Position numbers and translations under genes: made by a program. The notes beneath the pieces were generated by a model. That model made no database searches. It saw nothing but the letters and a program-made list of their open reading frames with translations, and had not been told where the DNA came from. A DNA stretch of 40,633 bases, taken from a virus. The stretch lies in UHGV virus genome UHGV-0140992; one strand, written 5' to 3'. Below, in pieces: positions 7,134 to 31,623 of this stretch. Positions within the stretch are counted from its first letter, which is position 1. Every line of letters begins with the position of its first letter.

Positions 7134-7223
7134 ATCAATGACTCCGTACGCAATTAAATTATTACCAATTTAACCACATATGATTTATTTATCGTAGGTA
7201 GTTGACATTTAACGCACAAATTA

Positions 7224-7560: not shown

Positions 7561-7637
7561 GTGGCATTAGCTCAGTTGGACAGAGCAACCGCCTTCTAAG
7601 CGGTTGGTCGCAGGTTCGAATCCTGCATGCCACGCCA
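7561..7637 (+). tRNA. tRNA-Arg (anticodon TCT)
   Basis: cloverleaf folded by hand: acceptor GTGGCAT/ATGCCAC, D-arm GCTC..GAGC, anticodon stem ACCGC/GCGGT with loop CTTCTAA, T-arm GCAGG-TTCGAAT-CCTGC, discriminator G plus CCA; close to E. coli argU. Confidence 0.85.
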
Positions 7638-7680: not shown

Positions 7681-7722
7681 GGCGGTGATGGTTTCCCTTG
7701 AAGGACTATCACCGCCCTTTTT
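7681..7722 (+). terminator. intrinsic terminator downstream of the tRNA
   Basis: GGCGGTGAT ... ATCACCGCC 9-bp stem followed by CTTTTT. Confidence 0.55.
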
Positions 7723-7800: not shown

Positions 7801-7825
7801 GCCCGGTTCGTCCGGGCATTTTTTT
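7801..7825 (+). terminator. intrinsic terminator
   Basis: GCCCGG-ttcgt-CCGGGC followed by ATTTTTTT. Confidence 0.5.
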
Positions 7826-7837
7826 AAGGTGAAAATC

Positions 7838-8170
7838 ATGAAAGAGAAGACTGCAGCTGAGCGCTATGCCGCAGCTATCAATGCCGCGATGGCGATTGTA
7901 AACCTGCGTGAAGAGATTAAAGATCTCCTTGCAATTATCCATAACAACCTGACATGTACAGAGTTGCTTGGCGGTCAGTACAACGGTGAGGCGGTGAAGG
8001 AGGCATTTAAAAATGCCGAGGTAGGAATAATTCCAGCAAACTATGTCAAGGCTGAATGTGTGCTCCTAAAGGCACGAGTGAGTCTGCATGAAGATCCTGG
8101 TAATCTCGGTCGAACTGCAATGCGTTACGTGATAGACGAGTCGAATGCCAAACACAATCTACCGAAATAA
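7838..8170 (+). CDS. hypothetical moron protein, 111 aa (track start 7829 is GTG; ATG at 7838)
   Basis: ORF track; opposite strand to flanking terminase and portal; GGTG RBS. Confidence 0.45.
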   Translation: MKEKTAAERYAAAINAAMAIVNLREEIKDLLAIIHNNLTCTELLGGQYNGEAVKEAFKNAEVGIIPANYVKAECVLLKARVSLHEDPGNLGRTAMRYVIDESNAKHNLPK

Positions 8171-8174
8171 CACC

Positions 8175-8186
8175 GTGACATGTCAC
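8175..8186. repeat. perfect palindrome GTGACATGTCAC, copy 1 of 3
   Basis: exact 12-mer shared with 10440 and 31612; intergenic. Confidence 0.6.
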
Positions 8187-9736: not shown

Positions 9737-10329
9737 TGATTACCATCCTGACGTTCTTTGAGTCGCTTCCTGGCTGCTGCTATGCGATCAGCAATTGTCA
9801 CATTCACATTAACATCCAGACGTTCTTTGAACGCGTTGACATCAACATGCTTACCAATCAGCTCAAGGTTCTTCACCTTGTCAGGCCATTTAATTTTTTT
9901 GAGGATTGTCTCTATCGAATCCTCGTTCATGTTCATGATGGTCGATGACAGATCAAAGCCACTAAGCGTAGTGCGCCAGATTTTCGGCCACTCACGGATT
10001 GGTTTAAGGCTCCCATCGTCGTTGAGGATGTCGATCACGTCCATCTGGTCGATCTCCACCAGGCGCATGAGAACGTAATCAGCACTGACGCGCATTCGTT
10101 TGTTGCGCTCCTCCATCAACTCGGCAATCCGTTTTTGAATGCGTTCATCGCGCATCATGACACTGGCTTTAACTGCCGCTGTATTTGGGGAGAATCCTGC
10201 GTTAATCGCTGCCTGAGTCTGGTTTTCAGGCGTTTTGATGTATGACTGGCAATAAGCCTCCTGCATTGCTGTTAGTGGCTTAAATTGCGTTGATTTGCGT
10301 TTATAGGTTTTAGGTTCAGCAGGCATCAT
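9733..10329 (-). CDS. terminase small subunit (track ORF to 10407; likely start MMPAEPK near 10329)
   Basis: basic/helical protein immediately upstream of TerL; the N-terminal extension in the track is encoded by a DNA tandem repeat. Confidence 0.65.
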   Translation of the reverse strand: MMPAEPKTYKRKSTQFKPLTAMQEAYCQSYIKTPENQTQAAINAGFSPNTAAVKASVMMRDERIQKRIAELMEERNKRMRVSADYVLMRLVEIDQMDVIDILNDDGSLKPIREWPKIWRTTLSGFDLSSTIMNMNEDSIETILKKIKWPDKVKNLELIGKHVDVNAFKERLDVNVNVTIADRIAAARKRLKERQDGNQ

Positions 10330-10336
10330 AACCACC

Positions 10337-10365
10337 GTGGTAATAGTTACCGTTGTGGTAATAGT
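10337..10365. promoter_or_regulatory. tandem GTGGTAATAGT repeat containing operator-type site TTACCGTTGTGGTAA (10347..10361)
   Basis: two 11-bp direct repeats 18 bp apart just upstream of the terminase operon; perfect TTACC-N5-GGTAA. Confidence 0.45.
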
Positions 10366-10372
10366 ACCATGC

Positions 10373-10398
10373 AAAATAAAGCCGCCATAGTTGGCGGC
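10373..10398 (-). terminator. intrinsic terminator
   Basis: gccgcca-tag-ttggcggc hairpin with a T-run on the minus strand. Confidence 0.45.
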
Positions 10399-10439
10399 AG
10401 TATTCAAAACCCATCAAATTCATCATGCATAATCTACTC

Positions 10440-10451
10440 GTGACATGTCAC
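10440..10451. repeat. perfect palindrome GTGACATGTCAC, copy 2 of 3
   Basis: exact 12-mer; overlaps the stop of the 115-aa ORF, upstream of the terminase operon. Confidence 0.6.
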
Positions 10452-10795
10452 ACTATTAATTTCGTTTCATGCCAGCCTTTAGTCACCCAGCATTGCGAGT
10501 CACCATTACACGGGCATGAATTAACTGGAACTCTCTCGCCGCACTTACCGCAACATTTTCTGCTGATCGATTTTATACGCCCGCGCACGCGTGCATCATC
10601 CTGGCGGATCAGTAACGCGATGTACTCGGCCATTTCATAGGGATCGCGACCAGGGCGCCGGGCGGCGCAGTTCCGCGCCAGCATTTCCTGCTCCTGCTTA
10701 TCCAGCACCAGTTCAATTTTGCGCTCACCGGCGGCGGACTGCCGAGCGCGCTGCGCGGCTTTGCGTTCTGCGGGGGATTTAGCCACGAATCGCAC
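10448..10795 (-). CDS. hypothetical protein with C-terminal Cys cluster, 115 aa
   Basis: ORF track; CCGKCGERVPVNSCPC motif; last gene before the late operon. Confidence 0.45.
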   Translation of the reverse strand: MRFVAKSPAERKAAQRARQSAAGERKIELVLDKQEQEMLARNCAARRPGRDPYEMAEYIALLIRQDDARVRGRIKSISRKCCGKCGERVPVNSCPCNGDSQCWVTKGWHETKLIV

Positions 10796-10901
10796 TCCAC
10801 GCCAGATTGATTAATGACTCCCAGGTAATATAAACCCGGATACCAGCAGCCAGGCCGAAACCAATCACCATGGCATAAAGCAGAGCGTTGCACTTGTTCA
10901 T
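10779..10901 (-). CDS. possible small hydrophobic protein, 40 aa (MNKCNALLYAMVIGFGLAAG...)
   Basis: AGGAGGT RBS; start overlaps the stop of the DUF551 gene (TGATG); inner part of track ORF 10779..11048. Confidence 0.3.
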   Translation of the reverse strand: MNKCNALLYAMVIGFGLAAGIRVYITWESLINLAWSAIRG

Positions 10902-11908
10902 CACTTCACCTCCTGCGGCGGTTCTGGTAGCGGCATCCAGAACAAGGCGTTCCCTAACCACGATAAAGTGCCGTCGCTCAACTCCACGTATTCCCCTTGT
11001 ACCTGTCCTGCCATATACTCGCCGTGCTTTGAATAAATTAAAATCCAATCATCTTGAGGGGGCATTCGCTCACTACAGCTTATCCAACCATCCGGAGTCA
11101 CCGGAAGCGAGAACGGCAGCACATCTCTGTGAACAAGTTTTTGCTGTGACAGGTTATCCAGAACTTTCTGTACTGCTGCATCACCGAATACACCAAGCGC
11201 ATCTGCCATAACTCCTACAACCTGATAAGCCTCAGCGCATACCGTGGATAAACCATCCGGAATATCCGGATAGTTGCCTGCCAGTCTACGCAAAACAGCC
11301 TTAACAGCCTCAATACGGTCATCATCGTAACTTTCCGCCGTATCTATGCGGTCGAGCATGATGATTGCGTTATCAATATCAGGATTGCCGGTCCACTCAT
11401 TACCGCGATTGGATTCGGCAGCCTGGTTGCCGCGTACTGGTTGATTGTCGGCTTTACCCAGTCTGTCGTCGCTGCATGAATGCCCTTCCAGCCAGGCCAA
11501 TGCTTGTCGCATGAAATACGCAATATGTTTGCCGTGGTAATCGTCTTCATCGATGTGAAAAGCGATACTACGAATGTATTCAATTGCGTTTTCAATGGCC
11601 TCTAACGCTATCGGCGCTGGCGGAGTGGTATATAGTTTTCGACATTTGTATATCCAACCGGCATGGTCAGGCGTGTCTGTAAAACGCAAATCGTCTTCGT
11701 AGCACTCACGACTACGTTCTTTCCATTCCGTCCACGGAACACCGCTATTCCAGGTGGGGCGAGTGCAGGACTGATACAGAACAGGCTCTGCTTCCAGCGA
11801 TGCCAGAGCAATTTCATAAGCCAGGCGCTCAATATTGTCTCGCACGTCCAGGCTGCCGATTCGCTCTCTGATTTCTTTAATCAGTTCTTTGTCGGTAAAA
11901 GTTGTCAT
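10901..11908 (-). CDS. DUF551-type prophage protein, 335 aa
   Basis: C-terminal region resembles the DUF551 family common in enterobacterial prophages (recall). Confidence 0.5.
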   Translation of the reverse strand: MTTFTDKELIKEIRERIGSLDVRDNIERLAYEIALASLEAEPVLYQSCTRPTWNSGVPWTEWKERSRECYEDDLRFTDTPDHAGWIYKCRKLYTTPPAPIALEAIENAIEYIRSIAFHIDEDDYHGKHIAYFMRQALAWLEGHSCSDDRLGKADNQPVRGNQAAESNRGNEWTGNPDIDNAIIMLDRIDTAESYDDDRIEAVKAVLRRLAGNYPDIPDGLSTVCAEAYQVVGVMADALGVFGDAAVQKVLDNLSQQKLVHRDVLPFSLPVTPDGWISCSERMPPQDDWILIYSKHGEYMAGQVQGEYVELSDGTLSWLGNALFWMPLPEPPQEVK

Positions 11909-11918
11909 GTGTTAGTCC

Positions 11919-12182
11919 TTATCCTGCTGTGCTTTCAACTGATGAGGGGAACAAAATCTTTTCATCAAACCCTGCATTCATATCATGAACAGCAACACAC
12001 CAATCCATTGACGAACGATTATCAAGAGCCTCCATGATTTCATCCATGCGGCGCAGGTCATACAGGTAAATGCTTTTATCGCCAATGGTGTAAAAACCAA
12101 TTTTTTTCGGTGATGGGCAGCGATCAAGAACGTCCTGTAATTCATTCAACCATGCCCGTTCTTTTTTTGTTAAAGTTGCCAT
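11919..12182 (-). CDS. hypothetical protein, 87 aa
   Basis: ORF track; co-oriented. Confidence 0.4.
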   Translation of the reverse strand: MATLTKKERAWLNELQDVLDRCPSPKKIGFYTIGDKSIYLYDLRRMDEIMEALDNRSSMDWCVAVHDMNAGFDEKILFPSSVESTAG

Positions 12183-12183
12183 A

Positions 12184-12714
12184 TCACTCTCCTTTGATGC
12201 GAATGCCAGTGGTACTCATTCTCCTGATTTCCCAGAGCACACGAGGAACACCACCGTTTCCGACCGGATCGCGTTTACTCCGCAGGGCGACGCTTGATTC
12301 CGCCCAGCTTTTTCTTGGAGGAAGCTCTTTCACACGAACAAAACCAGCTGCGCGAAGAGATGCTCCTGATTCATCTGCCCGGGTGTACGTAATACAACGT
12401 TGATAACCCATAGCTTTTGCTGCCCGCCAGACAGCACCATAAAGCGCGCTGTTAGCGTTGCGTTCTCCTGTGGTACATGTGCGATTTACTTCAAGCGTTA
12501 ATCCATCGTCCAAATGTCGTGCAACAGGTCGACCGGCTGTCGCCACACCTATCAATTCTCCGGCATCATTTCTCAGACCAATGCTGAATTTATGCCCCAC
12601 CGGGGGTTTATTGTGTCGGTGATGTCTGGATATAAATGCCTTCGCAACACGAAGAGTAACCGGTGAAATCTGCACTCTCACTCTCCTTTGATACCAATGT
12701 TTACAGTCTGGCAA
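12184..12714 (-). CDS. hypothetical protein, 176 aa (possible acetyltransferase-like fold)
   Basis: ORF track; weak GNAT-like motif; C-terminus IRIKGE matches the neighbouring Ea22-like gene. Confidence 0.4.
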   Translation of the reverse strand: MPDCKHWYQRRVRVQISPVTLRVAKAFISRHHRHNKPPVGHKFSIGLRNDAGELIGVATAGRPVARHLDDGLTLEVNRTCTTGERNANSALYGAVWRAAKAMGYQRCITYTRADESGASLRAAGFVRVKELPPRKSWAESSVALRSKRDPVGNGGVPRVLWEIRRMSTTGIRIKGE

Positions 12715-13406
12715 GCTTCTCTGAGCACCCAGTCAATAGCGTCTTTCCATGCTCCGGTTTCGACTGACGGATTTTCACGCTTAACCTGTTCATAGAAGCG
12801 CACTGCTTTAACCAGTCCTTCCGGTACTACTGGCGATGGCTGTTTAGCTTCTAAATCAGCAATTCTGTCAACCACGGCATCGACAGCATCTGAAAAGCCG
12901 AACCAGTTACTCCACTCCGGTCTGTCCCCGGTTGCTGCAAAGTACATATCAGCTAAAGCAGACTCAGCATGGTCACGCTCATTGATGAGTTGCTCTTCGC
13001 TTTTCTCCAGTTCAGCAATACGATTACTTCCATCCGAGATAACACCTTCGTAATACTCACGCTGCTCGTTGAGTTTTGATTTTGTCTCCTCAAGCTCAAC
13101 ACGCAGCTTCCCTACCGTTAGCGCAATATCCTCGTTCTCCTGGTCGCGGCGTTTGATGTATTGCTGGTTTCTTTCCCGTTCATCCAGCAGTGCAAGCACG
13201 GTAGCCGGATTAGCCTTGGCAACAAAATCCCGGACTGGCTTACAATCAATCTCCGCAATGGGTTGATACGATGTGTAGCCATGCTGTCTTGTATAACTAC
13301 CGTGACGAATAACGAAAAAATCACCATTTATTTTTTTAGCCTGCCACTTATCTTCACCGGCTTTCTCTGCCGCTTCACGCAGTGCATGATAGTTAATTTT
13401 GTTCAC
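12678..13406 (-). CDS. Ea22-like protein, 242 aa
   Basis: coiled-coil-rich protein in the nin/ea region; family assigned by recall. Confidence 0.5.
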   Translation of the reverse strand: MNKINYHALREAAEKAGEDKWQAKKINGDFFVIRHGSYTRQHGYTSYQPIAEIDCKPVRDFVAKANPATVLALLDERERNQQYIKRRDQENEDIALTVGKLRVELEETKSKLNEQREYYEGVISDGSNRIAELEKSEEQLINERDHAESALADMYFAATGDRPEWSNWFGFSDAVDAVVDRIADLEAKQPSPVVPEGLVKAVRFYEQVKRENPSVETGAWKDAIDWVLREACQTVNIGIKGE

Positions 13407-14008
13407 TGGTTGCCTCCTTTGCGAAGCTCTGCGGCAAAGTCAACTAACCACTCGGTCATTTCAACCTTCCCTACCAGGTCTGAACCAGGAAACATACAGC
13501 AATCACTCTGCGCCGCTTTGAAATCCTTATACTCATATTCCTGAGCCACCAGATTTTTTGCAGCTTCTATAACAGCATCCACCCCCTGCGCCCGTACTTC
13601 AGCCAGGAAAGCGTCGGTGGCTTGGGTTTCGATATCGTTAATTTCAGGAAGAATCTCTTCCCATGTAGCGATATCGCCATTCAAATGCCATCCGGCAATT
13701 CCACTGGAGTTATCCGCAACACTGCGAACGGCTTCAATAGTTTCATGCATTGCCGCATTCTCCGCTGCCAGCGCCGAAAACTTCTCGTGTGCCAACTTAA
13801 CAGCCGCATCAGCCTGCTTAATTGACTCAATCGCTTTCTGCTGGTCTTCGGCCAGCGCATTAGCACGCACCAGTTGCACTTCCAGTTGCGTTGCCAAATC
13901 GCTGATCAGCTTTGCCACACTGCGCATATCAACGGCACCACATTCTGCTTTCAGTTCCGAAGCCATCTCATGCCCGGCGGCAACTAACCCTTTGATATTA
14001 CTTTCCAT
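13403..14008 (-). CDS. Ea22-like protein, 201 aa
   Basis: ORF track; acidic coiled-coil composition. Confidence 0.45.
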   Translation of the reverse strand: MESNIKGLVAAGHEMASELKAECGAVDMRSVAKLISDLATQLEVQLVRANALAEDQQKAIESIKQADAAVKLAHEKFSALAAENAAMHETIEAVRSVADNSSGIAGWHLNGDIATWEEILPEINDIETQATDAFLAEVRAQGVDAVIEAAKNLVAQEYEYKDFKAAQSDCCMFPGSDLVGKVEMTEWLVDFAAELRKGGNQ

Positions 14009-14069
14009 CTTTACCCTCGCTTATCCACATAACTTATTGATTACATTGATAACTAAAAAGATCGTCGAT

Positions 14070-14414
14070 TCAGAACTCTTCGATGTTCCAGCCACCACCT
14101 GCTTTCTTTGGTTTAACCGTTACCCCGATGATTCGGAACGGATACTGATCTGCGGCGACTTTGGTTTTCACCCTGGCGTCGTCGGTCCAGAAACCTTTCA
14201 CTTCGTGCAGTTCCATCTCTCCGGTGGCGAGCATCACAGCGAAATCGGGCGTATAGAACGTGTTGTCAGCTAACCGCAGCTTGATACCCTCGAATCGATA
14301 CCAGGCGATTTCCCCTGCACGTTTACGCTGCTCAAGGTGCTGGCAATACGCAGATTCTGTTTTGTTCATCTGGCCTGTTTTGAGTCGACCAAGAGCCTGT
14401 ATCTGTTTTCTCAT
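14070..14414 (-). CDS. DUF1064-type phage protein, 114 aa
   Basis: resembles DUF1064 family (recall). Confidence 0.5.
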   Translation of the reverse strand: MRKQIQALGRLKTGQMNKTESAYCQHLEQRKRAGEIAWYRFEGIKLRLADNTFYTPDFAVMLATGEMELHEVKGFWTDDARVKTKVAADQYPFRIIGVTVKPKKAGGGWNIEEF

Positions 14415-14417
14415 GAT

Positions 14418-14494
14418 TTACCTCTAAGGTAATTGAAAACCATATAAGACACGAAATCAATAGAGTTTAGAATATTTTGTTACCTTGTAGGTAA
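14418..14494. promoter_or_regulatory. two operator-type sites TTACCTCTAAGGTAA (14418..14432) and TTACCTTGTAGGTAA (14480..14494)
   Basis: perfect half-sites, 62 bp apart, between the P-like gene end and the DUF1064 gene start. Confidence 0.45.
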
Positions 14495-14503
14495 TTGTTG
14501 AGG

Positions 14504-14528
14504 CGTAAAAAAATGCGCTATCGCGCTG
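14504..14528 (-). terminator. weak intrinsic terminator after the P-like gene
   Basis: short GCGC hairpin with a 7-T run on the minus strand. Confidence 0.3.
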
Positions 14529-14531
14529 GTA

Positions 14532-15308
14532 TTACTTGATAAATCCTGCCGCCTTTCCCCGCCTGTATTCCTCCATCAGCCACTGCGCCGGTGTTATTCC
14601 CCCAAGGGTGGCGGCGTTAGGCATGCACCCGAAACTTCGCCCTGGTGGATGGTAAACGTCTCTCCCTGTGTCCGGAGGTGTACTCATGGGCTCTGGCTTT
14701 GCCTGTATGCTGATCACCGGATCGGGTATCTGCTGTCCGGAAGCCACCTTTTTCGCCCAATCATCGAGCAGCCTGCGCGCGTGTTTCTCAACCTCACTCT
14801 CGCTAAGCTGGCGCTGATACATTGCACGACGGGTATCACATACGACCCAGTACATAACCGGATGCCGCCACGGGAATCTTTCGGGACCACCAGGATATAA
14901 ACTTTTTTCCTTGCTGTACCGGTGAAACTCCGCCATCACATCGTCAATGGTGACGCCAAGAACCATCTTGCTGTCTTTGCACCACTTGATGAATTGCCCT
15001 GGCGACGGCCAGAACGGAGATTCACTGGCGCGGGCGTGGCGCATACCAGCGTTAACCTGTTCCATTGTAGTGATCCCATTCTCCAGAAACGCAAGCATCC
15101 ATTGCTTACGGAATTCATTAAGTTTGTTCTGCTCCCTTATGGTCGAAACGCTTGCAGGAAATGCAGCCTGTAACTGGACAAATAGTTCATTGAAAATTCT
15201 AGCAACCTGCTCCTTTTTGCCATTGCTGTCACGCCGCTCTTCATGCACAGCAACACCATGCTCACGTAAGCGATCGTACTCATTGAGAAGTTCTGGAGTT
15301 GATTTCAT
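14532..15308 (-). CDS. replication protein P-like (helicase loader), 258 aa
   Basis: clear similarity to lambda P, e.g. FPAS...EQN...RKQWMLAFLENGITTMEQVNAGMR. Confidence 0.8.
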   Translation of the reverse strand: MKSTPELLNEYDRLREHGVAVHEERRDSNGKKEQVARIFNELFVQLQAAFPASVSTIREQNKLNEFRKQWMLAFLENGITTMEQVNAGMRHARASESPFWPSPGQFIKWCKDSKMVLGVTIDDVMAEFHRYSKEKSLYPGGPERFPWRHPVMYWVVCDTRRAMYQRQLSESEVEKHARRLLDDWAKKVASGQQIPDPVISIQAKPEPMSTPPDTGRDVYHPPGRSFGCMPNAATLGGITPAQWLMEEYRRGKAAGFIK

Positions 15309-16110
15309 CCCACACCCCTTCTATCCAGTCAGTGTTATTCCAGTCAAGCTCATCGCTTTTCCCGGCATTTTTTGATTTTCCCCTGATATGATTTACGTGC
15401 CTGGCGAATTTTTGTTCCCACTGAACCTGCGTGAACACTTTGCCCTCAGCCATCCAGTAATCCCGGAATGCAGCAAGTTCAGCAGGTGTAAATTCCGGTT
15501 CCGGCAGGGCCGTTCCCCACAGCGCAGCACGCCGCCGAAAATCTGGCGACGGTAGCCAGCCATCTGTCATCGGAAATTTCCCGATGGGTTCACTCAGGCC
15601 ATCCAGAAATTCAGGTTCTGCCACCTGCAACGGCGTACTGTTCGCTTCACTGGTCGGAGCACCCTCGCGCACGTGCGCTATGTGTGGGGTTTTATATATA
15701 TCTTCCTCTTCCTCTTCCTCTGGTAACTCCTTTTGTAACGCTGTTGGCGTTACTTTTTGCGTTACTCGTTTTCTATGCTCTGCCACTCTTCTATTCGTAA
15801 GTGCACGTTTTTTCGATGATTCTCCATTATGTCGCTCAAAGTTTGGAAGAATTAGTTTGCCGTCATGATAAGCAAGCCATCCGACGCTAATGAGGGCGTC
15901 AGCAAATCCTGTAATAAAAGCGAGTCTATCAAGTACTCCTTTTGTAACGCTGCCAGCGTTACCGTCTATTGTTTGCTGGTCAGCCCATGCCCATATACGA
16001 ACCAGCTTTCCAAGAACAGCATCTGGATCAATACCCAGAATTTCTGCTATCTGAAAAATTTCAGGTTTATCAGGAGTGATAACTTCAACCTTAATCCAGC
16101 TGCTTGCCAT
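15280..16110 (-). CDS. replication initiation protein (O-like position), about 276 aa
   Basis: directly upstream of and overlapping the P-like gene; contains iteron-like DNA repeats; start set at MASSWIKV. Confidence 0.6.
   Translation of the reverse strand: MASSWIKVEVITPDKPEIFQIAEILGIDPDAVLGKLVRIWAWADQQTIDGNAGSVTKGVLDRLAFITGFADALISVGWLAYHDGKLILPNFERHNGESSKKRALTNRRVAEHRKRVTQKVTPTALQKELPEEEEEEDIYKTPHIAHVREGAPTSEANSTPLQVAEPEFLDGLSEPIGKFPMTDGWLPSPDFRRRAALWGTALPEPEFTPAELAAFRDYWMAEGKVFTQVQWEQKFARHVNHIRGKSKNAGKSDELDWNNTDWIEGVWDEINSRTSQ
15728..15965. repeat. iteron-like repeats (candidate origin) inside the O-like gene
   Basis: CTCCTTTTGTAACGCTG at about 15728 and 15946, each followed by inverted GCGTTAC; five GTAACGC/GCGTTAC copies; the two long copies are read in different frames. 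Confidence 0.4.
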
Positions 16111-16303
16111 AGGTTTCCCCTCTTGCACTCTTTAGTGCACAAGCAAATTCATTACGATGGCGGTTGGCGCTATTCATTGCACATTCAACACATGTTCCGT
16201 TCAGAACATACCTTTCAGAGAGATGGCCGTGACGGCACCGCTTTCCTGTGAAATAGCGATTTAACCCGGCTTTTGCGGCCTCCATTCTGGTTACTATCTT
16301 CAA
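16091..16303 (-). CDS. hypothetical small Cys/His-rich protein, 70 aa (cII position)
   Basis: ORF track; between the Cro-like and O-like genes. Confidence 0.4.
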   Translation of the reverse strand: MKIVTRMEAAKAGLNRYFTGKRCRHGHLSERYVLNGTCVECAMNSANRHRNEFACALKSARGETYGKQLD

Positions 16304-16403
16304 TTTTTCCGCCCCTTTTTGTTATTGATATTGACTATTTTGCACAATTGGAAAATTTGATCAACCAGATTTGGTTTTTTATTACCCTTAAGGTGCGAAT
16401 AGA

Positions 16404-16430
16404 TATGAAAAGACCGCCGGATGGCGGTCT
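16404..16430 (-). terminator. intrinsic terminator after the Cro-like gene (tR1-like position)
   Basis: agaccgcc-ggat-ggcggtct 8-bp stem with TTTT on the minus strand. Confidence 0.5.
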
Positions 16431-16451
16431 ACAGAGGGTTGTGGCTGGATA

Positions 16452-16682
16452 TCATGAGTAGAAGAAGTATGCCAGTTCTGCTTTTGAGCGCAGCCATTGT
16501 CTTGTTTTACAGGCTTTAAAAAGCCCATTCATCAATACTTTACCTGGCATTTTGCGCTTGCCTGTTAAGTGAGTCTGGATATAGTGACTCGTCGTTCCGG
16601 CTTCCTGTGCGAAGGCTTCACGCTCATCCGGAGTAAGTGCAAGCCAGTGCTTTTTGAAATCGAAATGTCCGTTATCGCTCAT
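16452..16682 (-). CDS. Cro-like regulator, 76 aa
   Basis: small protein transcribed divergently from the repressor across the operator cluster. Confidence 0.55.
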   Translation of the reverse strand: MSDNGHFDFKKHWLALTPDEREAFAQEAGTTSHYIQTHLTGKRKMPGKVLMNGLFKACKTRQWLRSKAELAYFFYS

Positions 16683-16718
16683 AGCTATTGCCTGATATTT
16701 ATTTCAGATAATAAATAT

Positions 16719-16781
16719 TCACCCATAAGGTAACAAAAATCAAGGATAGTTACCTATGAGGTGCATTTACCTGTTGGGTAA
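16719..16781. promoter_or_regulatory. OR-like operator cluster: TCACCCATAAGGTAA (16719), TTACCTATGAGGTGC (16750), TTACCTGTTGGGTAA (16767)
   Basis: three 15-bp inverted repeats at 31- and 17-bp spacing between divergent Cro-like and CI-like genes. Confidence 0.6.
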
Positions 16782-16836
16782 TATTGCTTTAAATTGAATC
16801 ATCTACTGATTCATATATGAGGCGATTTTCCAGAAA

Positions 16837-17421
16837 ATGAAAAGTATCCAGGACGTCCGCAGGCAAAATCTCAACGACTTGATCGACCGTGAATTCAATG
16901 GTGTTCAGACGCGGATGGCAGAAAAACTTGGAACTCAGGCAAATCTGGTAAACCGCTGGGCTCTTGGCAAGAAGGTTATCGGCGACCAGGTTGCACGAAA
17001 AATTGAAGCTGCCGCCAATAAACCCCGTAACTGGCTTGATATTGATCGTTCGCTTTCTCAGGAGGGTTTTCAGCCTGTCGGCCCGAGCGATATAGGTCAG
17101 CTGGCGGCTCACAACCTGGAACGCTGGATGAGCGAAAGCCGCGACCTTTCAACACAGGGAAAACTTCACCGCGCATCCGGCGTCGCCCAGGTGACAATCA
17201 GCCGCCTGTTAAACAATGAGGTCAGCGTTTCCATTTCCACCCTGGAGAATGTTGCATCCGCATTCGGGCGTCACGGATATGAACTACTGATTCACCCGCA
17301 CGACCCTGCGACTATCAACTATGACCGCTCACGCTACGCATTGTTACCCGAAACCGAGAAAGCAAAGATCGAAAGTTACATTGAATTTGTCATCAACCAG
17401 AACGAAAAAAGCAAACAATAA
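16837..17421 (+). CDS. CI-like immunity repressor, 194 aa, two HTH-like segments, no S24 peptidase domain
   Basis: divergent from the Cro-like gene across the operators; HTH-type N-terminus; no Ala-Gly / GDSM / Lys autocleavage motifs seen. Confidence 0.7.
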   Translation: MKSIQDVRRQNLNDLIDREFNGVQTRMAEKLGTQANLVNRWALGKKVIGDQVARKIEAAANKPRNWLDIDRSLSQEGFQPVGPSDIGQLAAHNLERWMSESRDLSTQGKLHRASGVAQVTISRLLNNEVSVSISTLENVASAFGRHGYELLIHPHDPATINYDRSRYALLPETEKAKIESYIEFVINQNEKSKQ

Positions 17422-17442
17422 AACTATAGTTTTCAGTAAGTA

Positions 17443-17467
17443 AGCCGCCTCATGGCGGCTTTTTTAT
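17443..17467 (+). terminator. intrinsic terminator of the repressor gene
   Basis: agccgcc-tcat-ggcggct followed by TTTTTTATT. Confidence 0.6.
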
Positions 17468-17478
17468 TGCCAGATAGA

Positions 17479-17555
17479 TTACCTTACGGGTAATTTTTTT
17501 AACTCATATCTATTGACACCAAACCAAATAAGCATAATTATTACCCCAACGGTAA
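17479..17555. promoter_or_regulatory. OL-like operators TTACCTTACGGGTAA (17479) and TTACCCCAACGGTAA (17541) around a TTGACA hexamer
   Basis: two perfect sites flanking TTGACA at 17513, upstream of the plus-strand operon. Confidence 0.55.
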
Positions 17556-17574
17556 CAGACCGAGGTAACAAGTT

Positions 17575-17727
17575 ATGCAGTGGAAAATCATCAACGGTTG
17601 GTACTGCGTTACTGCATGCGGATTCATGAGCTGGAAGTTCCGCACCTTACAGGAAGGCATTAAGTGGGCTTTCGTCAGCAAAGAAGCTCGCGATGTAGCC
17701 AACGATAACGAGATATGGGAGGGCTGA
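17575..17727 (+). CDS. possible small protein, 50 aa (MQWKIINGWYCVTACGF...)
   Basis: GAGGT RBS; stop overlaps the next start (TGATAATG); below the ORF-track length cutoff. Confidence 0.3.
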   Translation: MQWKIINGWYCVTACGFMSWKFRTLQEGIKWAFVSKEARDVANDNEIWEG

Positions 17728-17729
17728 TA

Positions 17730-18029
17730 ATGAACGTTAATCAGCAGAAAAATCTTCAAAAAATCATGCTGGCATTCGACAAGGACTACCGCCTGTCAGA
17801 ACAGCTATATGACCGACAAGTTGAACTGATTGAGAGCATCCGACTTCATCAACTGTCCTCAACTTTCGACGTTGTAACAGGCAAAGGCGTTCGTCAGGAA
17901 GTGCTGGAGGCTGCTAAAGACAGCCCTGAGTTCGAAGAACTGATGGATGCCTACCGGCGCGAGGCAATGGCAATTATAGCGCGCTGGGATCTGGCGGATC
18001 AGCTTGATGGGCAGAGGGACGCGGCATGA
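17730..18029 (+). CDS. hypothetical early protein, 99 aa (ATG at 17730)
   Basis: GGGAGG RBS 8 nt upstream; stop overlaps the exonuclease start. Confidence 0.5.
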   Translation: MNVNQQKNLQKIMLAFDKDYRLSEQLYDRQVELIESIRLHQLSSTFDVVTGKGVRQEVLEAAKDSPEFEELMDAYRREAMAIIARWDLADQLDGQRDAA

Positions 18030-22795: not shown

Positions 22796-22810
22796 ATACC
22801 TTTAAGGTAA
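22796..22810. promoter_or_regulatory. operator-type site ATACCTTTAAGGTAA (one mismatch)
   Basis: about 45 bp upstream of the integrase start. Confidence 0.4.
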
Positions 22811-24868: not shown

Positions 24869-25149
24869 ACTTTCTCCTGTTTACTATCTATAAGCCAGTC
24901 AATTATTGATGACTAAACCCGCATAGTAAACCATATATGAATCATTATTGTTCCATATCATATATCTCAATAAAAGTACTAATGATTTTACAGAACGAGC
25001 CAGCAGAGTGGGGGCAGTTGTACAGGAACCATAGACTTAATTTTGTATTTAATAATGCTATGGTGTAATAAACCTGAACATGTATTTAAAATACGTACTG
25101 ATTCATGATAGAATTCAAAGATAACTTTTCACAAACTCCGTTTTTGATA

Positions 25150-28294: not shown

Positions 28295-28398
28295 GTTAAA
28301 TCTCCAGATAGTCGCAGCACCCGTTGCGCCGCATATCTGGTTATTCTATTACCTGGAAAACCACATATGGATAGAAAGGATGTAAATACGAATAGATA

Positions 28399-28413
28399 TT
28401 ACCTTTCAGGTAA
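28399..28413. promoter_or_regulatory. operator-type site TTACCTTTCAGGTAA
   Basis: identical 15-mer to 7224; in the divergent region between tailspike and the LexA-box gene. Confidence 0.45.
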
Positions 28414-28450: not shown

Positions 28451-28470
28451 TACTGTATAAATATACAGTT
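28451..28470. promoter_or_regulatory. LexA (SOS) box TACTGTATAAATATACAGTT
   Basis: 18 of 20 match to consensus TACTGTATATATATACAGTA, intact CTGT-N8-ACAG, overlaps a TATAAAT -10-like element about 20 bp before the downstream ATG. Confidence 0.65.
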
Positions 28471-28489
28471 ATTGCATGGAGAAGATAAG

Positions 28490-28747
28490 ATGCAGCAGTA
28501 TCACTATCCACTGGAAGACGGATTTACCGAAAGGATTCACACGCCGGGAGGCGTCAGGTCACTGGTGGAGGGATCGCACTTGATGAAATTACTCCGGGAT
28601 CTCGATAAGGATGGATTTAATGTCGATGGCCCACTTGCCGAACTGACTGCACTGATTAACTACGTCACCAGCTCACAGATGTCTATGCAGGATCTGCAAA
28701 CACATCTCGACTATTGTGCCGAACAATTACGAAAACAAACCCGGTAA
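28490..28747 (+). CDS. small antirepressor-like protein, 85 aa (track 28472 is TTG; ATG at 28490)
   Basis: GGAGAAG RBS; LexA box and operator upstream; about 45 percent identical by eye to the C-terminal domain of the Bro-N protein at 29896..30606. Confidence 0.55.
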   Translation: MQQYHYPLEDGFTERIHTPGGVRSLVEGSHLMKLLRDLDKDGFNVDGPLAELTALINYVTSSQMSMQDLQTHLDYCAEQLRKQTR

Positions 28748-29518: not shown

Positions 29519-29626
29519 TTACCTTAAAGGTAATATCTTGCTTTCAGGTGATCAAGCGTTAAACGCCACCAACCAAATACGGTTGATTTTGATATTTCTC
29601 CGCGTTTATCATTACCTTTGCGGTAA
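29519..29626. promoter_or_regulatory. operator-type sites TTACCTTAAAGGTAA (29519..29533) and TTACCTTTGCGGTAA (29612..29626)
   Basis: perfect half-sites between the divergent 242-aa gene and the Bro-N gene. Confidence 0.45.
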
Positions 29627-29639
29627 ATTTACATCGCAC

Positions 29640-29880
29640 TCCTCTTGTGCCATAGTAATCGGGCACTGGCAAAATCCAGTGCCGGGATTGGCGTCCCGGG
29701 TTACTAAGTGGCGCATACCACGCCAGACGTGGTTTTTTTATGCGTTAAGCACAGCTATATCCGAATTATGGTGGGCTGGGCAGGGGTCCGAAAGGACGCC
29801 GGTACCACTTAGGCCGGTACGCCAACCTTGTCCAGTTCACCACCAGTAATTGGCGTTGCGGTGGTGATTAAAATCACTAA
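29640..29880 (+). other. highly structured non-coding leader upstream of the Bro-N gene
   Basis: nested inverted repeats GGCACTGG-caaaat-CCAGTGCC and CCGGGA-ttggcg-TCCCGG; CCACG-ccaga-CGTGG followed by TTTTTTTA; direct repeat GCCGGTAC. Confidence 0.3.
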
Positions 29881-29895
29881 GTGGAGATAACCACC

Positions 29896-30606
29896 ATGGC
29901 TAATGCTCAAACTTCCATCTTCAAATTTGAATCTGTTAACCCTATCCGTTCCATCATTATCGATGGCCAACCATGGTTTGTAGCCCAAGACGTTTGTAGT
30001 GCGCTGCGTATCCAAAACGTCACCCAAGCACTTGAAAAACTGGATGATGATGAAAGGTCTATGTTCAACATAGGGCATGAACATCGTGCAATTTTTGACA
30101 GCCGAGTAAAAGAGATCAACATCATCTCCGAGTCAGGCCTCTACACACTGATCCTCCGCTGCCGCGACGCAGTGACACCAGGCACTATCCCCTACCGCTT
30201 TCGTAAATGGGTTACGGGTGAGGTTCTTCCTCAGATCCGCCGCACCGGAAGCTACATTAAAAACTCGCTCCCGCAGGAAGAACGCATAAAGATGGTTGCC
30301 GACCAGGTGGCCAACGCCACGGCGTCAGCAGTAATGCAGGCGATGAAGATAGAGAACAAAACCTACAGCGCCCCACTGAATCCCGGCTACCGCAGCCTGA
30401 TTCATTCGCCGTCTGGTGTTCTCGGCCTGACGGAGAACTCACTGCTGATGAATCTGCTGAACCAGTTACAGGACGACGGGCACGACGTATCGGGCGCGGC
30501 GGCGGAGCTGACCACCATGTTCTGCTACATCGTCGGTGTGAGCAAATGCCTGCGTGATATCCAGACCCACGCGGAATACATCAACGACAAGGCAGGGTTC
30601 TTCTGA
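29896..30606 (+). CDS. Bro-N domain antirepressor-like protein, 236 aa (ATG at 29896)
   Basis: N-terminal Bro-N-type motifs (FKFESVNPIRSIIIDGQPWFVAQDVCSAL); C-terminal domain paralogous to the 28490 gene. Confidence 0.65.
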   Translation: MANAQTSIFKFESVNPIRSIIIDGQPWFVAQDVCSALRIQNVTQALEKLDDDERSMFNIGHEHRAIFDSRVKEINIISESGLYTLILRCRDAVTPGTIPYRFRKWVTGEVLPQIRRTGSYIKNSLPQEERIKMVADQVANATASAVMQAMKIENKTYSAPLNPGYRSLIHSPSGVLGLTENSLLMNLLNQLQDDGHDVSGAAAELTTMFCYIVGVSKCLRDIQTHAEYINDKAGFF

Positions 30607-31611: not shown

Positions 31612-31623
31612 GTGACATGTCAC
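31612..31623. repeat. perfect palindrome GTGACATGTCAC, copy 3 of 3
   Basis: exact 12-mer between the small hydrophobic ORF stop and the hairpin. Confidence 0.6.

What the first reader, a model, noticed from the sequence alone, without database searches (positions are those of the whole stretch)
14500..16430. Terminators inside the early-right operon without a recognisable N or Q antiterminator
A tR1-like terminator follows the Cro-like gene and a weaker one follows the P-like gene. I recognise no N-like or Q-like protein. Read-through may rely on an unrecognised factor, on leaky termination, or be replaced by direct repressor control of downstream promoters (operators at 14418 and 14480).
Basis: inference. 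Interest (0 to 1): 0.45.

Follow-up and report, generated by a model that had tools for sequence, protein, structure and literature searches.

The report
Terminator-split early genes with repressor-gated promoters
In this epsilon15/phiV10-type temperate phage the "early-right operon" is cut by two terminator-like hairpins, and each downstream gene block has its own promoter flanked by binding sites for the phage repressor. No lambda-style antiterminator seems to be needed, and this layout is already annotated in close relatives.

Summary
The window is a complete Uetakevirus (epsilon15/phiV10-like) genome, and the early-right genes lie on the minus strand.

**Observation.** Both hairpins are real.
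- A good intrinsic terminator follows the cro-like gene at 16411-16430 (-): 8-bp stem, -15 kcal/mol.
- A weak one follows the P-like gene at 14507-14526 (-): 4-bp GCGC stem plus T7.

**Operators.** The two "operators" are exact copies of TTACC-N5-GGTAA, which has 11 exact copies in the window. epsilon15 also has 11 copies at the same kinds of positions, all in intergenic DNA.

**Promoter after P.** The post-P region has the same layout as PL: operator, 19 nt, -35, 17 nt, then a -10 abutting a second operator, with operator centres 62 bp apart. This layout is conserved in 7 of 7 relatives.

**Promoter after cro.** A conserved imperfect operator and promoter-like pair also follows the cro terminator.

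**Best reading.** The region is a chain of repressor-gated transcription units insulated by terminators, not one antiterminated operon.

**Novelty.** phiV10's record already annotates both terminators, and epsilon15's record already annotates the dispersed repressor sites. The finding is ordinary and largely known.

The parts
16837..17421 (+). Immunity repressor (Rep/CI-like, 194 aa, two HTH-like regions, no S24 peptidase domain)
   Evidence: Full-length homologue of Salmonella phage SPC32H Rep, PDB 5D50, E = 3.5e-42. phiV10 gp40 is annotated as a repressor with two HTH motifs.
16708..16781 (-). OR/PR region. Operators at 16719-16733 (1 mismatch), 16750-16764 (2 mismatches) and 16767-16781 (exact). 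PR-like -35 TTGATT at 16738-16743; -10 AATATT or TATTAT at 16708-16719.
   Evidence: promoter scan.
16452..16682 (-). cro-like gene (76 aa)
   Evidence: phrog_35 transcriptional repressor, E = 5.6e-13. Its position is divergent from the repressor gene.
16401..16430 (-). Intrinsic terminator after cro: 8-bp stem, tetraloop, then UUUUCAUAUCU
   Evidence: The homologous site in phiV10 is annotated as a 'putative rho-independent terminator'. In epsilon15, SPN1S and Klebsiella phage ST512-KPC3phi13.3 a hairpin is kept but the U-tract is lost.
16336..16396 (-). Imperfect operator GCACCTTAAGGGTAA (16382-16396), 17 nt, -35-like TTGATC (16359-16364), 16 nt, CAAAAT within TGCAAAATA (16336-16344). Candidate promoter for the replication block.
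   Evidence: The operator right half-site GGTAAT, the TTGATC and the CAAAAT/AAAATT are conserved in most of the 7 phages aligned; coordinates. The hexamers score only 8 of 12, so this is inferred.
14532..16303 (-). Replication block: small Zn-ribbon protein (16091-16303), DnaT-like protein (15280-16128), lambda-P-like protein (14532-15308)
   Evidence: Annotation of close relatives; phrog_1081 for the small protein.
14507..14526 (-). Weak terminator-like hairpin GCGC-GATA-GCGC followed by A and T7
   Evidence: The homologous site in phiV10 is annotated as a 'putative rho-independent transcriptional terminator'.
14418..14494 (-). Operator-promoter-operator cassette: operator 14480-14494, 19 nt, -35 TTGATT 14455-14460, 17 nt, -10 TTCAAT 14432-14437 abutting operator 14418-14432. 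That second operator also covers the Shine-Dalgarno sequence of the DUF1064 gene. Operator centres are 62 bp apart.
   Evidence: Same layout and same 62-bp spacing as PL. Conserved in 7 of 7 relatives. One operator of the pair is annotated as a repressor binding site in epsilon15.
14070..14414 (-). DUF1064 / resolvase-like gene, first gene of the next transcription unit
   Evidence: Pfam PF06356; phrog_190 Holliday junction resolvase.
17442..17555 (+). Terminator after the repressor gene (17442-17461), OL2 (17479-17493), PL TTGACA-17-AATTAT (17513-17541), OL1 (17541-17555)
   Evidence: -21.1 kcal/mol; 10 of 12 promoter match.
10329..10398 (-). Terminator 10381-10398, extended -10 TGGTACTAT 10361-10369, tandem operators 10347-10361 (exact) and 10329-10343 (1 mismatch), terS ATG at 10327-10329
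   Evidence: epsilon15 has the same arrangement, with a terminator and a repressor site annotated there.
10448..10786 (-). 112-aa gp49-family protein. It has a ribbon-helix-helix-like core and a Cys-rich C-terminus and is the last gene of the early block. It is not Q-like.

Best explanation
The region is not one lambda-style operon that must be antiterminated. It is a chain of separately promoted transcription units gated by the phage repressor (Rep).

- Unit 1: PR transcribes cro and mostly stops at the intrinsic terminator at 16411-16430.
- Unit 2: A weak promoter just downstream (TTGATC-16-CAAAAT), preceded by an imperfect operator, together with some read-through, serves the Zn-ribbon, DnaT-like and P-like replication genes. 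This unit ends at the weak GCGC hairpin plus T7.
- Unit 3: A PL-type promoter bracketed by two operators 62 bp apart starts the resolvase-to-gp49 block.
- Unit 4: A further terminator followed by an operator-gated promoter starts terS/terL.

In the lysogen the tetrameric Rep occupies all of these sites, and the paired sites are probably looped. On induction an antirepressor removes Rep and all units fire without any N- or Q-type factor. The terminators act as insulators or attenuators between units.

Shown here: the hairpins, the operators, their statistics, their conservation, and the absence of detectable N or Q. Inferred: promoter activity, Rep occupancy of each site, and termination efficiency.
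For: - **Operator counts.** TTACC-N5-GGTAA occurs 11 times exactly in the window. It also occurs 11 times in epsilon15, all within the 6.6% of that genome that is intergenic; chance for that is about 1e-13.
- **Operator positions.** Sites lie at OR and OL and before the resolvase, terS, gp3, tailspike, antirepressor and integrase genes.
- **Repeated pattern.** The order terminator, then operator(s), then next gene block recurs three times on the minus strand.
- **Post-P cassette.** It copies PL exactly: operator, 19 nt, -35, 17 nt, -10 abutting an operator, 62-bp spacing. It is kept in 7 of 7 phages from E. coli, Salmonella, Enterobacter and Klebsiella, even where the flanking genes differ.
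- **Post-cro region.** The operator half-site and promoter-like hexamers are conserved in most of the 7 phages, while the U-tract of the cro terminator is lost in 3 of 7. Downstream expression therefore does not track a terminator/antiterminator pair.
- **Repressor identity.** Rep is a full-length homologue of SPC32H Rep, PDB 5D50. That protein is a tetramer with a looping-type tetramerisation domain (PMC9986798).
- **Antirepressors.** Ant homologues are present. Overexpressing the repressor in the 97%-identical phage ZX5 cut endolysin and holin transcripts by more than 99.9% (PMC9782041).
- **No N or Q.** No N or Q, and no boxA near PR or PL, was found by any search.
- **Prior annotation.** epsilon15's RefSeq record annotates dispersed repressor sites at the homologous places.
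Against: - No transcript or binding data were available, so promoters are consensus matches plus conservation only.
- The post-cro promoter matches only 8 of 12 hexamer positions, its operator is imperfect, and it has no downstream operator.
- If every unit fires on derepression there is no obvious early/late timing. The promoters before gp3, tailspike and lysis have poor -35 elements and share a block, cATATGTGGTT, which hints at an unidentified positive factor.
- The post-P hairpin is so weak that it may not terminate at all.
Confidence: 0.6

Rival explanations
1. Leaky termination is the main route. PR transcripts read through both hairpins at useful frequency without any factor, and the internal operator/promoter elements are minor or serve only to tighten repression in the lysogen.
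For: - The cro terminator has an interrupted U-tract (UUUUCAUAUCU).
- The post-P stem has only 4 bp, and its fold is not better than shuffles in epsilon15.
- Three of seven relatives lack the U-tract after cro altogether.
Against: - The post-P cassette has a complete PL-type promoter conserved in 7 of 7 phages. That is hard to explain if it were not used.
- An 8-bp, -15 kcal/mol GC-rich stem usually terminates a substantial fraction of transcripts (general knowledge, not tested here).
Confidence: 0.25
2. An unrecognised phage antiterminator, protein or RNA, lets PR transcription pass the terminators. Candidates are the 50-aa and 104-aa first PL products, the 63-70-aa Zn-ribbon protein, and the gp49-family RHH/Zn protein.
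For: - Several small early proteins have no known function.
- The gp49-family protein has an Arg/Lys-rich N-terminal helix.
- Its presumed palindromic site lies next to terminators at three operon ends.
Against: - The 50-aa and 104-aa proteins are not basic or Arg-rich.
- The PR and PL leaders are only about 20-35 nt, and only 21 nt separate the cro stop from the hairpin, which leaves no room for nut- or put-like elements. No boxA was found there.
- The gp49 gene lies downstream of both terminators, and none of its palindromes is near them.
- Its homologues also occur in N15-like phages that have their own Q.
Confidence: 0.1
3. The post-P hairpin, and possibly the U-tract-less post-cro hairpins of epsilon15-type relatives, are not terminators. 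They would instead be mRNA 3'-end stabilisers or processing sites, or part of the upstream region of the next promoter.
For: - The stem has 4 bp, z = +0.3 in epsilon15.
- The stem never covaries; only the loop varies.
- epsilon15's record annotates several RNase III sites elsewhere in the genome.
Against: - The hairpin plus an uninterrupted T7 run is kept in 7 of 7 phages directly after the stop codon of different replication genes. This is the classic position and form of a weak intrinsic terminator.
- phiV10's annotators called it one.
Confidence: 0.15

Closest known systems
Uetakevirus relatives: epsilon15 (NC_004775.2), phiV10 (DQ126339.2), SPC32H/SPN1S, vB_EcoP_ZX5
   Same: - Same gene order. 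The repressor is a homologue of SPC32H Rep (PDB 5D50), and Ant-type antirepressors are present.
- Same TTACC-N5-GGTAA sites at homologous positions; epsilon15 annotates 7 of them as repressor binding sites.
- phiV10 annotates terminators after its cro-like, P, repressor and gp55 genes at the homologous places.
   Different: - The accessory genes of the resolvase-to-gp49 block differ.
- The window has a canonical U-tract after cro, which epsilon15 and SPN1S lack.
- The window carries a second, Bro-N-fused antirepressor preceded by isrK-like and C4-like RNAs.
Lambda early-right operon (PR-cro-nutR-tR1-cII-O-P ... Q) with N antitermination
   Same: - Divergent repressor and cro genes with a three-site OR, and cro followed by a terminator.
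- A P-like replication gene.
- A regulator-like gene as the last early gene, just before a terminator and the late genes.
   Different: - No N, no Q, no boxA or nut-like element.
- The terminator is intrinsic, not Rho-dependent.
- Operator-flanked promoters follow each terminator.
- The repressor has no RecA-cleavable domain and is inactivated by antirepressors.
Phage P1 C1 regulon with the immI (c4 antisense RNA / ant) region (from established knowledge of P1)
   Same: - One repressor with many operators dispersed around the genome, each gating a separate promoter.
- An antirepressor gene preceded by a C4-type antisense RNA. Rfam C4 scores 66 bits at 29764-29847, downstream of a repressor-controlled promoter.
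   Different: - P1 C1 is an unrelated protein that binds asymmetric 17-bp sites. Here the sites are 15-bp palindromes bound by a SPC32H-type tetramer.
- No P1 Lpa-type late activator was identified or searched for specifically.
Mycobacteriophage L5 gp71 'stoperators' (from established knowledge)
   Same: Repressor sites are scattered through the genome, including downstream of transcription start points. The terS tandem operators lie between the -10 and the start codon.
   Different: L5 sites are asymmetric, orientation-dependent and mostly within transcribed intergenic gaps, where they block elongation. Here the sites are palindromic and positioned at promoters, either abutting the -10 or 17-19 nt upstream of the -35.

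Membership tests
Lambda N-type processive antitermination | An N-family arginine-rich protein encoded as the first PL gene | tested here: not met
   The 50-aa and 104-aa PL products have no Pfam or NCBIfam hit and match only PHROGs of unknown function. Their sequences are not Arg-rich. No six-frame ORF matches lambda N; best E = 0.23.
Lambda N-type processive antitermination | A nut site (boxA plus boxB hairpin) between the promoter and the first terminator | tested here: not met
   CGCTCTTTA with up to 1 mismatch gives no hit in the PR-to-terminator or PL leader segments, and overall hits are at chance level. Only 21 nt lie between the cro stop and the terminator stem.
Lambdoid Q-type late antitermination | A Q-family protein | tested here: not met
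   No Pfam, PHROG or NCBIfam antiterminator hit among 20 early or accessory proteins. No ORF resembles lambda Q or phiKO2 Q. The gp49-family profile against Q gives hhalign probability below 1%. Its model resembles RHH domains, not Q.
Lambdoid Q-type late antitermination | A late promoter with a Q-binding element, followed closely by a terminator upstream of the late genes | tested here: inconclusive
   A terminator at 10381-10398 precedes terS, and a promoter-like GTGACA-18-CATGAT overlaps the palindrome at 10440-10451. In relatives with genes inserted there, the palindrome stays with the gp49 gene and not with the terminator, and no -10 element is kept.
HK022-type put RNA antitermination | A roughly 70-nt two-stem-loop RNA just downstream of PL and PR | tested here: not met
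   The leaders between the predicted -10 and the first start codon are about 20-35 nt. No RNA family hit was found in 10200-17800 even at E <= 5. Caveat: I did not confirm that Rfam holds a put model.
Intrinsic (Rho-independent) terminator | A GC-rich stem-loop immediately followed by a U-tract, downstream of a stop codon | tested here: met
   16401-16430 (-): 8-bp stem with 6 GC pairs, -15 kcal/mol, z = -4.6, and 5 T in the next 8 nt. For 14507-14526 the feature is only marginally met: a 4-bp stem and T7 separated from the stem by one A.
Uetakevirus Rep/operator/antirepressor immunity system (SPC32H, epsilon15) | A Rep homologue | tested here: met
   E = 3.5e-42 over residues 1-190 against PDB 5D50 chain A.
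Uetakevirus Rep/operator/antirepressor immunity system (SPC32H, epsilon15) | Dispersed palindromic operators at the positions annotated in epsilon15 | tested here: met
   Eleven exact sites in each genome. Positions before terS, gp3, the tail fibre or tailspike gene, OL, OR and the resolvase gene coincide. Actual Rep binding was not tested.
Uetakevirus Rep/operator/antirepressor immunity system (SPC32H, epsilon15) | An Ant-type antirepressor | tested here: met
   Residues 160-236 of the product of 29881-30606 match SPC32H Ant (5D50_E) at E = 3e-13. The product of 28472-28747 matches phrog_450/1760 and has a LexA box at 28453-28468.
P1 C1-type dispersed-operator regulon | A C1-family repressor and asymmetric 17-bp operators | tested here: not met
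   The repressor belongs to the SPC32H Rep family and its sites are 15-bp palindromes. The system works like P1's but is not a member.

The most novel reading that the evidence does not exclude
The 112-aa gp49-family RHH/Cys-rich protein (10448-10786) and its GTGAC-NN-GTCAC palindrome could form a previously undescribed regulator-plus-site module acting at operon ends. It might be a DNA-bound termination, insulation or antitermination factor, and it could take the place of Q in timing or separating early and late transcription in phages that lack N and Q.

What supports it:
- The palindrome is embedded in, or lies within 3 nt after, the gene's own stop codon across distant phages.
- Two further copies lie next to the terminators after terL and at the end of the structural operon.

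What limits it: the module would not act on the two terminators of the finding, because no palindrome is near them.
Probability: 0.1. Interest if true: 0.65.

Novelty: already known. Interest (0 to 1): 0.25.

Why it matters
The result shows that a common group of E. coli and Salmonella prophages (epsilon15/phiV10 type) organises its lytic genes differently from lambda. These phages have many short units, each locked by the same repressor, instead of a few long operons opened by antiterminators.

This matters for annotating such prophages. Absence of N or Q does not mean a prophage is defective.

It also matters for engineering phiV10- or SPC32H-based reporter phages, where insert position relative to these terminator/promoter cassettes will decide expression.

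The principle itself is already recorded in the feature tables of epsilon15 and phiV10. What is still missing is experimental transcript mapping.

Tried and rejected
- **Covariation test.** I hoped that epsilon15's repressor, reported as 42% homologous to ZX5's (PMC9782041), would recognise a different operator, so that operators and repressor could be shown to co-vary. This failed: epsilon15 uses the same TTACC-N5-GGTAA core. Only positional conservation could be used.
- **gp49 as Q.** Its position as the last early gene before a terminator and terS, and its Cys-rich C-terminus, suggested Q. I rejected this on profile and fold comparisons and because homologues occur in N15/phiKO2, which have their own Q.
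- **The palindrome as a Q-binding element in a late promoter.** This is unlikely, because the palindrome stays with the gene and not with the terminator when genes are inserted between them.
- **Plus-strand promoter-like site at 14446-14473.** I considered it as an antisense promoter. It is not conserved in relatives.
- **Rfam.** At a permissive threshold across 10200-17800 it gave only sub-threshold hits driven by terminator hairpins.
- **Literature.** The primary epsilon15, phiV10 and SPC32H papers are not in the held library, so prior knowledge was taken from GenBank/RefSeq feature tables and citing papers.
Full report
**What the window is.** Megablast of 10000-18000 finds 95-97% identity, in mosaic blocks, to Escherichia phages HEMP4, vB_EcoP_ZX5, TL-2011b and phiV10, and to many E. 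coli prophages. These are Uetakeviruses, the epsilon15-like temperate podophages. The 40.6-kb window is essentially a whole genome of this type.

The genes of the finding lie on the minus strand, in this order:
- cro-like, 16682-16452
- a 63-70-aa Zn-ribbon protein, 16303-16091
- a DnaT-like protein, 16128-15280
- a lambda-P-like protein, 15308-14532
- a DUF1064/resolvase-like protein, 14414-14070
- eae-, ea22-, Mom- and DUF551-type accessory genes
- a 112-aa protein, 10786-10448
- terS and terL

The repressor gene (16837-17421) and the recombination, excision and methylase genes are on the plus strand.

**Checking the observation.** The terminator after cro is AGACCGCC-ATCC-GGCGGTCT at 16430-16411, followed by TTTCATATCT. 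It folds at -15 kcal/mol with z = -4.56. It is present in 78 of 80 IMG/VR contigs that encode an identical Cro, and the differences are mostly in the loop.

The element after P is GCGC-GATA-GCGC-A-T7 at 14526-14507. With a 4-bp stem it is thermodynamically marginal: z = -2.5 here and +0.3 for the epsilon15 version. Even so, the sequence GCGC-N4-GCGC, one purine, then T7 is kept in all seven diverse relatives aligned and in 72 of 80 IMG/VR loci.

Both sites are already annotated as putative rho-independent terminators in the phiV10 GenBank record.

**No N or Q.** Twenty early and accessory proteins were scanned against Pfam, PHROGs and/or NCBIfam, and none gave an antiterminator hit. All 731 six-frame ORFs of at least 30 aa were compared with lambda N, lambda Q and the Q-like gp38 of phiKO2; nothing scored better than E = 0.2.

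The leaders from PR and PL to their first genes are about 20-35 nt, and only 21 nt separate the cro stop from the hairpin. That leaves no room for nut- or put-type RNA elements. boxA-like matches are at chance level and none lies in those segments. Rfam finds nothing in the region even at E <= 5.

The best positional candidate for a Q analogue is the 112-aa last early gene (phrog_536, labelled "transcriptional regulator").
- It has no PDB sequence relative.
- Its AlphaFold2 model has pLDDT 75.
- Foldseek gives no significant hit.
- Profile comparison with lambda Q and phiKO2 Q is null.
- Homologues sit in N15-like phages that have their own Q, and in P2-like Yersinia phages.

**What is there instead.** TTACC-N5-GGTAA occurs 11 times exactly in the window, with several one- or two-mismatch copies. 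With up to 2 mismatches there are 38 matches against 11.5 +/- 3.3 expected.

The sites are:

| Location | Coordinates |
|---|---|
| OR | 16719, 16750, 16767 |
| OL | 17479, 17541 |
| After the cro terminator (2 mismatches) | 16382 |
| Between P and the DUF1064 gene | 14480, 14418 |
| Directly before terS | 10347, 10329 |
| Before gp3 | 7224 |
| Before the tailspike gene | 28399 |
| Before the antirepressor region | 29519, 29612 |
| Before another plus-strand gene | 30679 |
| Upstream of integrase (1 mismatch) | 22796 |

(Source.)

epsilon15 also has 11 exact copies. All are in the 6.6% of its genome that is intergenic, at the homologous positions. Seven of them are annotated in its RefSeq record as repressor binding sites.

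The repressor is a full-length homologue of SPC32H Rep (PDB 5D50, E = 3.5e-42). That protein is a tetramer with a looping-type tetramerisation domain that also binds the antirepressor (PMC9986798).

**Promoter architecture.** PL reads: operator, 19 nt, TTGACA, 17 nt, AATTAT, where the last T of the -10 is the first T of the second operator. The operator centres are 62 bp apart.

The post-P region has the same layout: operator, 19 nt, TTGATT, 17 nt, TTCAAT abutting the second operator, again with 62-bp spacing. The downstream operator also covers the Shine-Dalgarno sequence of the DUF1064 gene. This layout is conserved in all seven relatives, with -35 TTGAT(T/A) or TTGAAA and a -10 of the form TTCAAT, TTAAAT, TTTAAT or ATAAAT. 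It is conserved even in epsilon15 and Tyrion, where the flanking replication and resolvase genes belong to different families.

After the cro terminator, most of the seven phages keep three elements: an imperfect operator with an invariant right half-site GGTAAT and a variable left half-site, then TTGATC 17 nt downstream, and CAAAAT or AAAATT 16 nt further on. In contrast, the U-tract of the cro terminator is missing in epsilon15, SPN1S and a Klebsiella phage, where only the hairpin remains.

A third repetition lies before terS: terminator 10398-10381, an extended -10 (TGGTACTAT here, TGTTACTAT in epsilon15) abutting two tandem operators, then the terS ATG.

**Interpretation.** The recurring order of terminator, operator(s)/promoter, then next gene block argues that this is a set of independently promoted, Rep-gated units. 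So do the identity of the post-P cassette with PL and the fact that promoter and operator conservation does not track terminator conservation. The terminators would act as insulators or attenuators.

Induction would work through antirepressors, not repressor cleavage.
- Rep has no S24 peptidase domain.
- A small Ant-like gene has a perfect LexA box.
- A Bro-N::Ant fusion lies behind isrK-like and C4-like RNAs.
- In the 97%-identical phage ZX5, overexpressed repressor cut endolysin and holin transcripts by more than 99.9%, and the antirepressor promoted lytic growth (PMC9782041).

I put about 0.6 on this model. Leaky termination probably contributes, especially at the weak post-P hairpin, and cannot be separated from the model without transcript data. 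An unknown antiterminator is the least supported alternative.

**Open point: timing of late genes.** The promoters before gp3, tailspike and lysis have operators upstream, poor -35 hexamers, and a shared block cATATGTGGTT-N5-GGTAAT... in both the window and epsilon15. This suggests a positive factor that I could not identify.

**An unexpected side observation.** The 12-bp palindrome GTGACATGTCAC occurs exactly three times in the window and three times in epsilon15, at homologous places:
- overlapping the TGA stop codon of the gp49-family gene (10440-10451);
- just after the hairpin that follows terL (8175-8186);
- immediately before the terminator at the end of the structural operon (31612-31623).

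The link between gene and palindrome is general. It holds in 76 of 78 close IMG/VR loci. It holds in 8 of 8 loci of two distant subfamilies, with a variable central dinucleotide and the palindrome starting 3 nt before to 3 nt after the end of the stop codon. It also holds in phiKO2 and in a P2-like Yersinia phage. The palindrome stays with the gene when other genes are inserted before terS.

Together with the RHH-like fold, this suggests a regulator-plus-site module of unknown function located at operon ends. It is not near the two terminators of the finding.

**Novelty and verdict.** The absence of N and Q is real as far as sequence, profile and fold methods can see.

The terminators (phiV10) and the dispersed repressor sites (epsilon15) are already in public feature tables, so the finding is ordinary for this phage group. 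Interest is low to moderate. The gp49-family palindrome module is the only part that looks undescribed.

Noticed in passing
10440-10451, 8175-8186, 31612-31623 (window); L003 39612, 2142, 19517; L004 4246; L005 4288; L006 4499 and 7214; L094-L101: The perfect palindrome GTGACATGTCAC occurs three times per genome at conserved operon ends, next to terminators. One copy contains the TGA stop codon of the 112-aa gp49-family RHH/Cys-rich gene. The gene-palindrome link (GTGAC-NN-GTCAC at -3 to +3 of the stop) holds in 76 of 78 close loci and 8 of 8 distant loci. It persists when genes are inserted downstream. The palindrome is not annotated in the epsilon15 record and its function is unknown.
   Followed up: partly
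29519-30606: Repressor operators at 29519 and 29612 flank a promoter, TTGATT-18-TATCAT, whose -10 abuts the operator. It is followed by Rfam isrK (29663-29739, 67.7 bits) and C4 antisense RNA (29764-29847, 66 bits), then a Bro-N::Ant fusion gene (29881-30606). This is a P1 immI-like antirepressor control module in an epsilon15-type phage.
   Followed up: partly
28453-28747: A perfect LexA box, CTGTATAAATATACAG (28453-28468), lies directly upstream of a second, small Ant-like gene (28472-28747; phrog_450/1760). That gene is divergent from the tailspike promoter and its operator at 28399. The phage therefore appears to carry two differently controlled antirepressors.
   Followed up: partly
7172-7181, 28359-28368, 24929-24938 (minus strand); L003 2989, 19941, 24752, 35954: A shared block, cATATGTGGTT-N5-GGTAAT(A/AG)AAT, lies 30-41 bp downstream of the operators before gp3 and tailspike, and a 1-mismatch copy lies before the lysis genes. 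It is conserved in epsilon15. The -35 hexamers are poor, which looks like a late-promoter signature that may need an unidentified activator.
   Followed up: partly
10327-10407: The long terS ORF starting at TTG 10407 corresponds to the 675-bp terS that PGAP annotates in the E. coli F11 prophage. It would run through the terminator 10381-10398 and both operators. ATG 10329, the shorter start used in epsilon15 and ZX5, is the likelier start.
   Followed up: partly
22796-22810: A one-mismatch operator, ATACCTTTAAGGTAA, lies about 30 bp upstream of the integrase GTG start (22753, minus strand). This suggests that the repressor also controls int.
   Followed up: no
7561-7637: A tRNA-Arg (anticodon TCT) lies on the plus strand between terL and the gp3 operon. 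It is next to a plus-strand ORF (7829-8170) and strong plus-strand terminators at 7681-7716 and 7801-7817.
   Followed up: no
12184-12714: A Mom-like DNA-modification protein (phrog_1384, E = 9.5e-42; Pfam Mom below its cut-off) is encoded among the accessory genes of the resolvase-to-gp49 block.
   Followed up: no
L003 33690-33735; L011; L009 (relatives): In epsilon15, SPN1S and Klebsiella phage ST512-KPC3phi13.3 the hairpin after cro is kept, but its U-tract is replaced by TCCTTCC or TCCTGCC. The cro terminator is therefore not a conserved functional terminator across the genus.
   Followed up: yes
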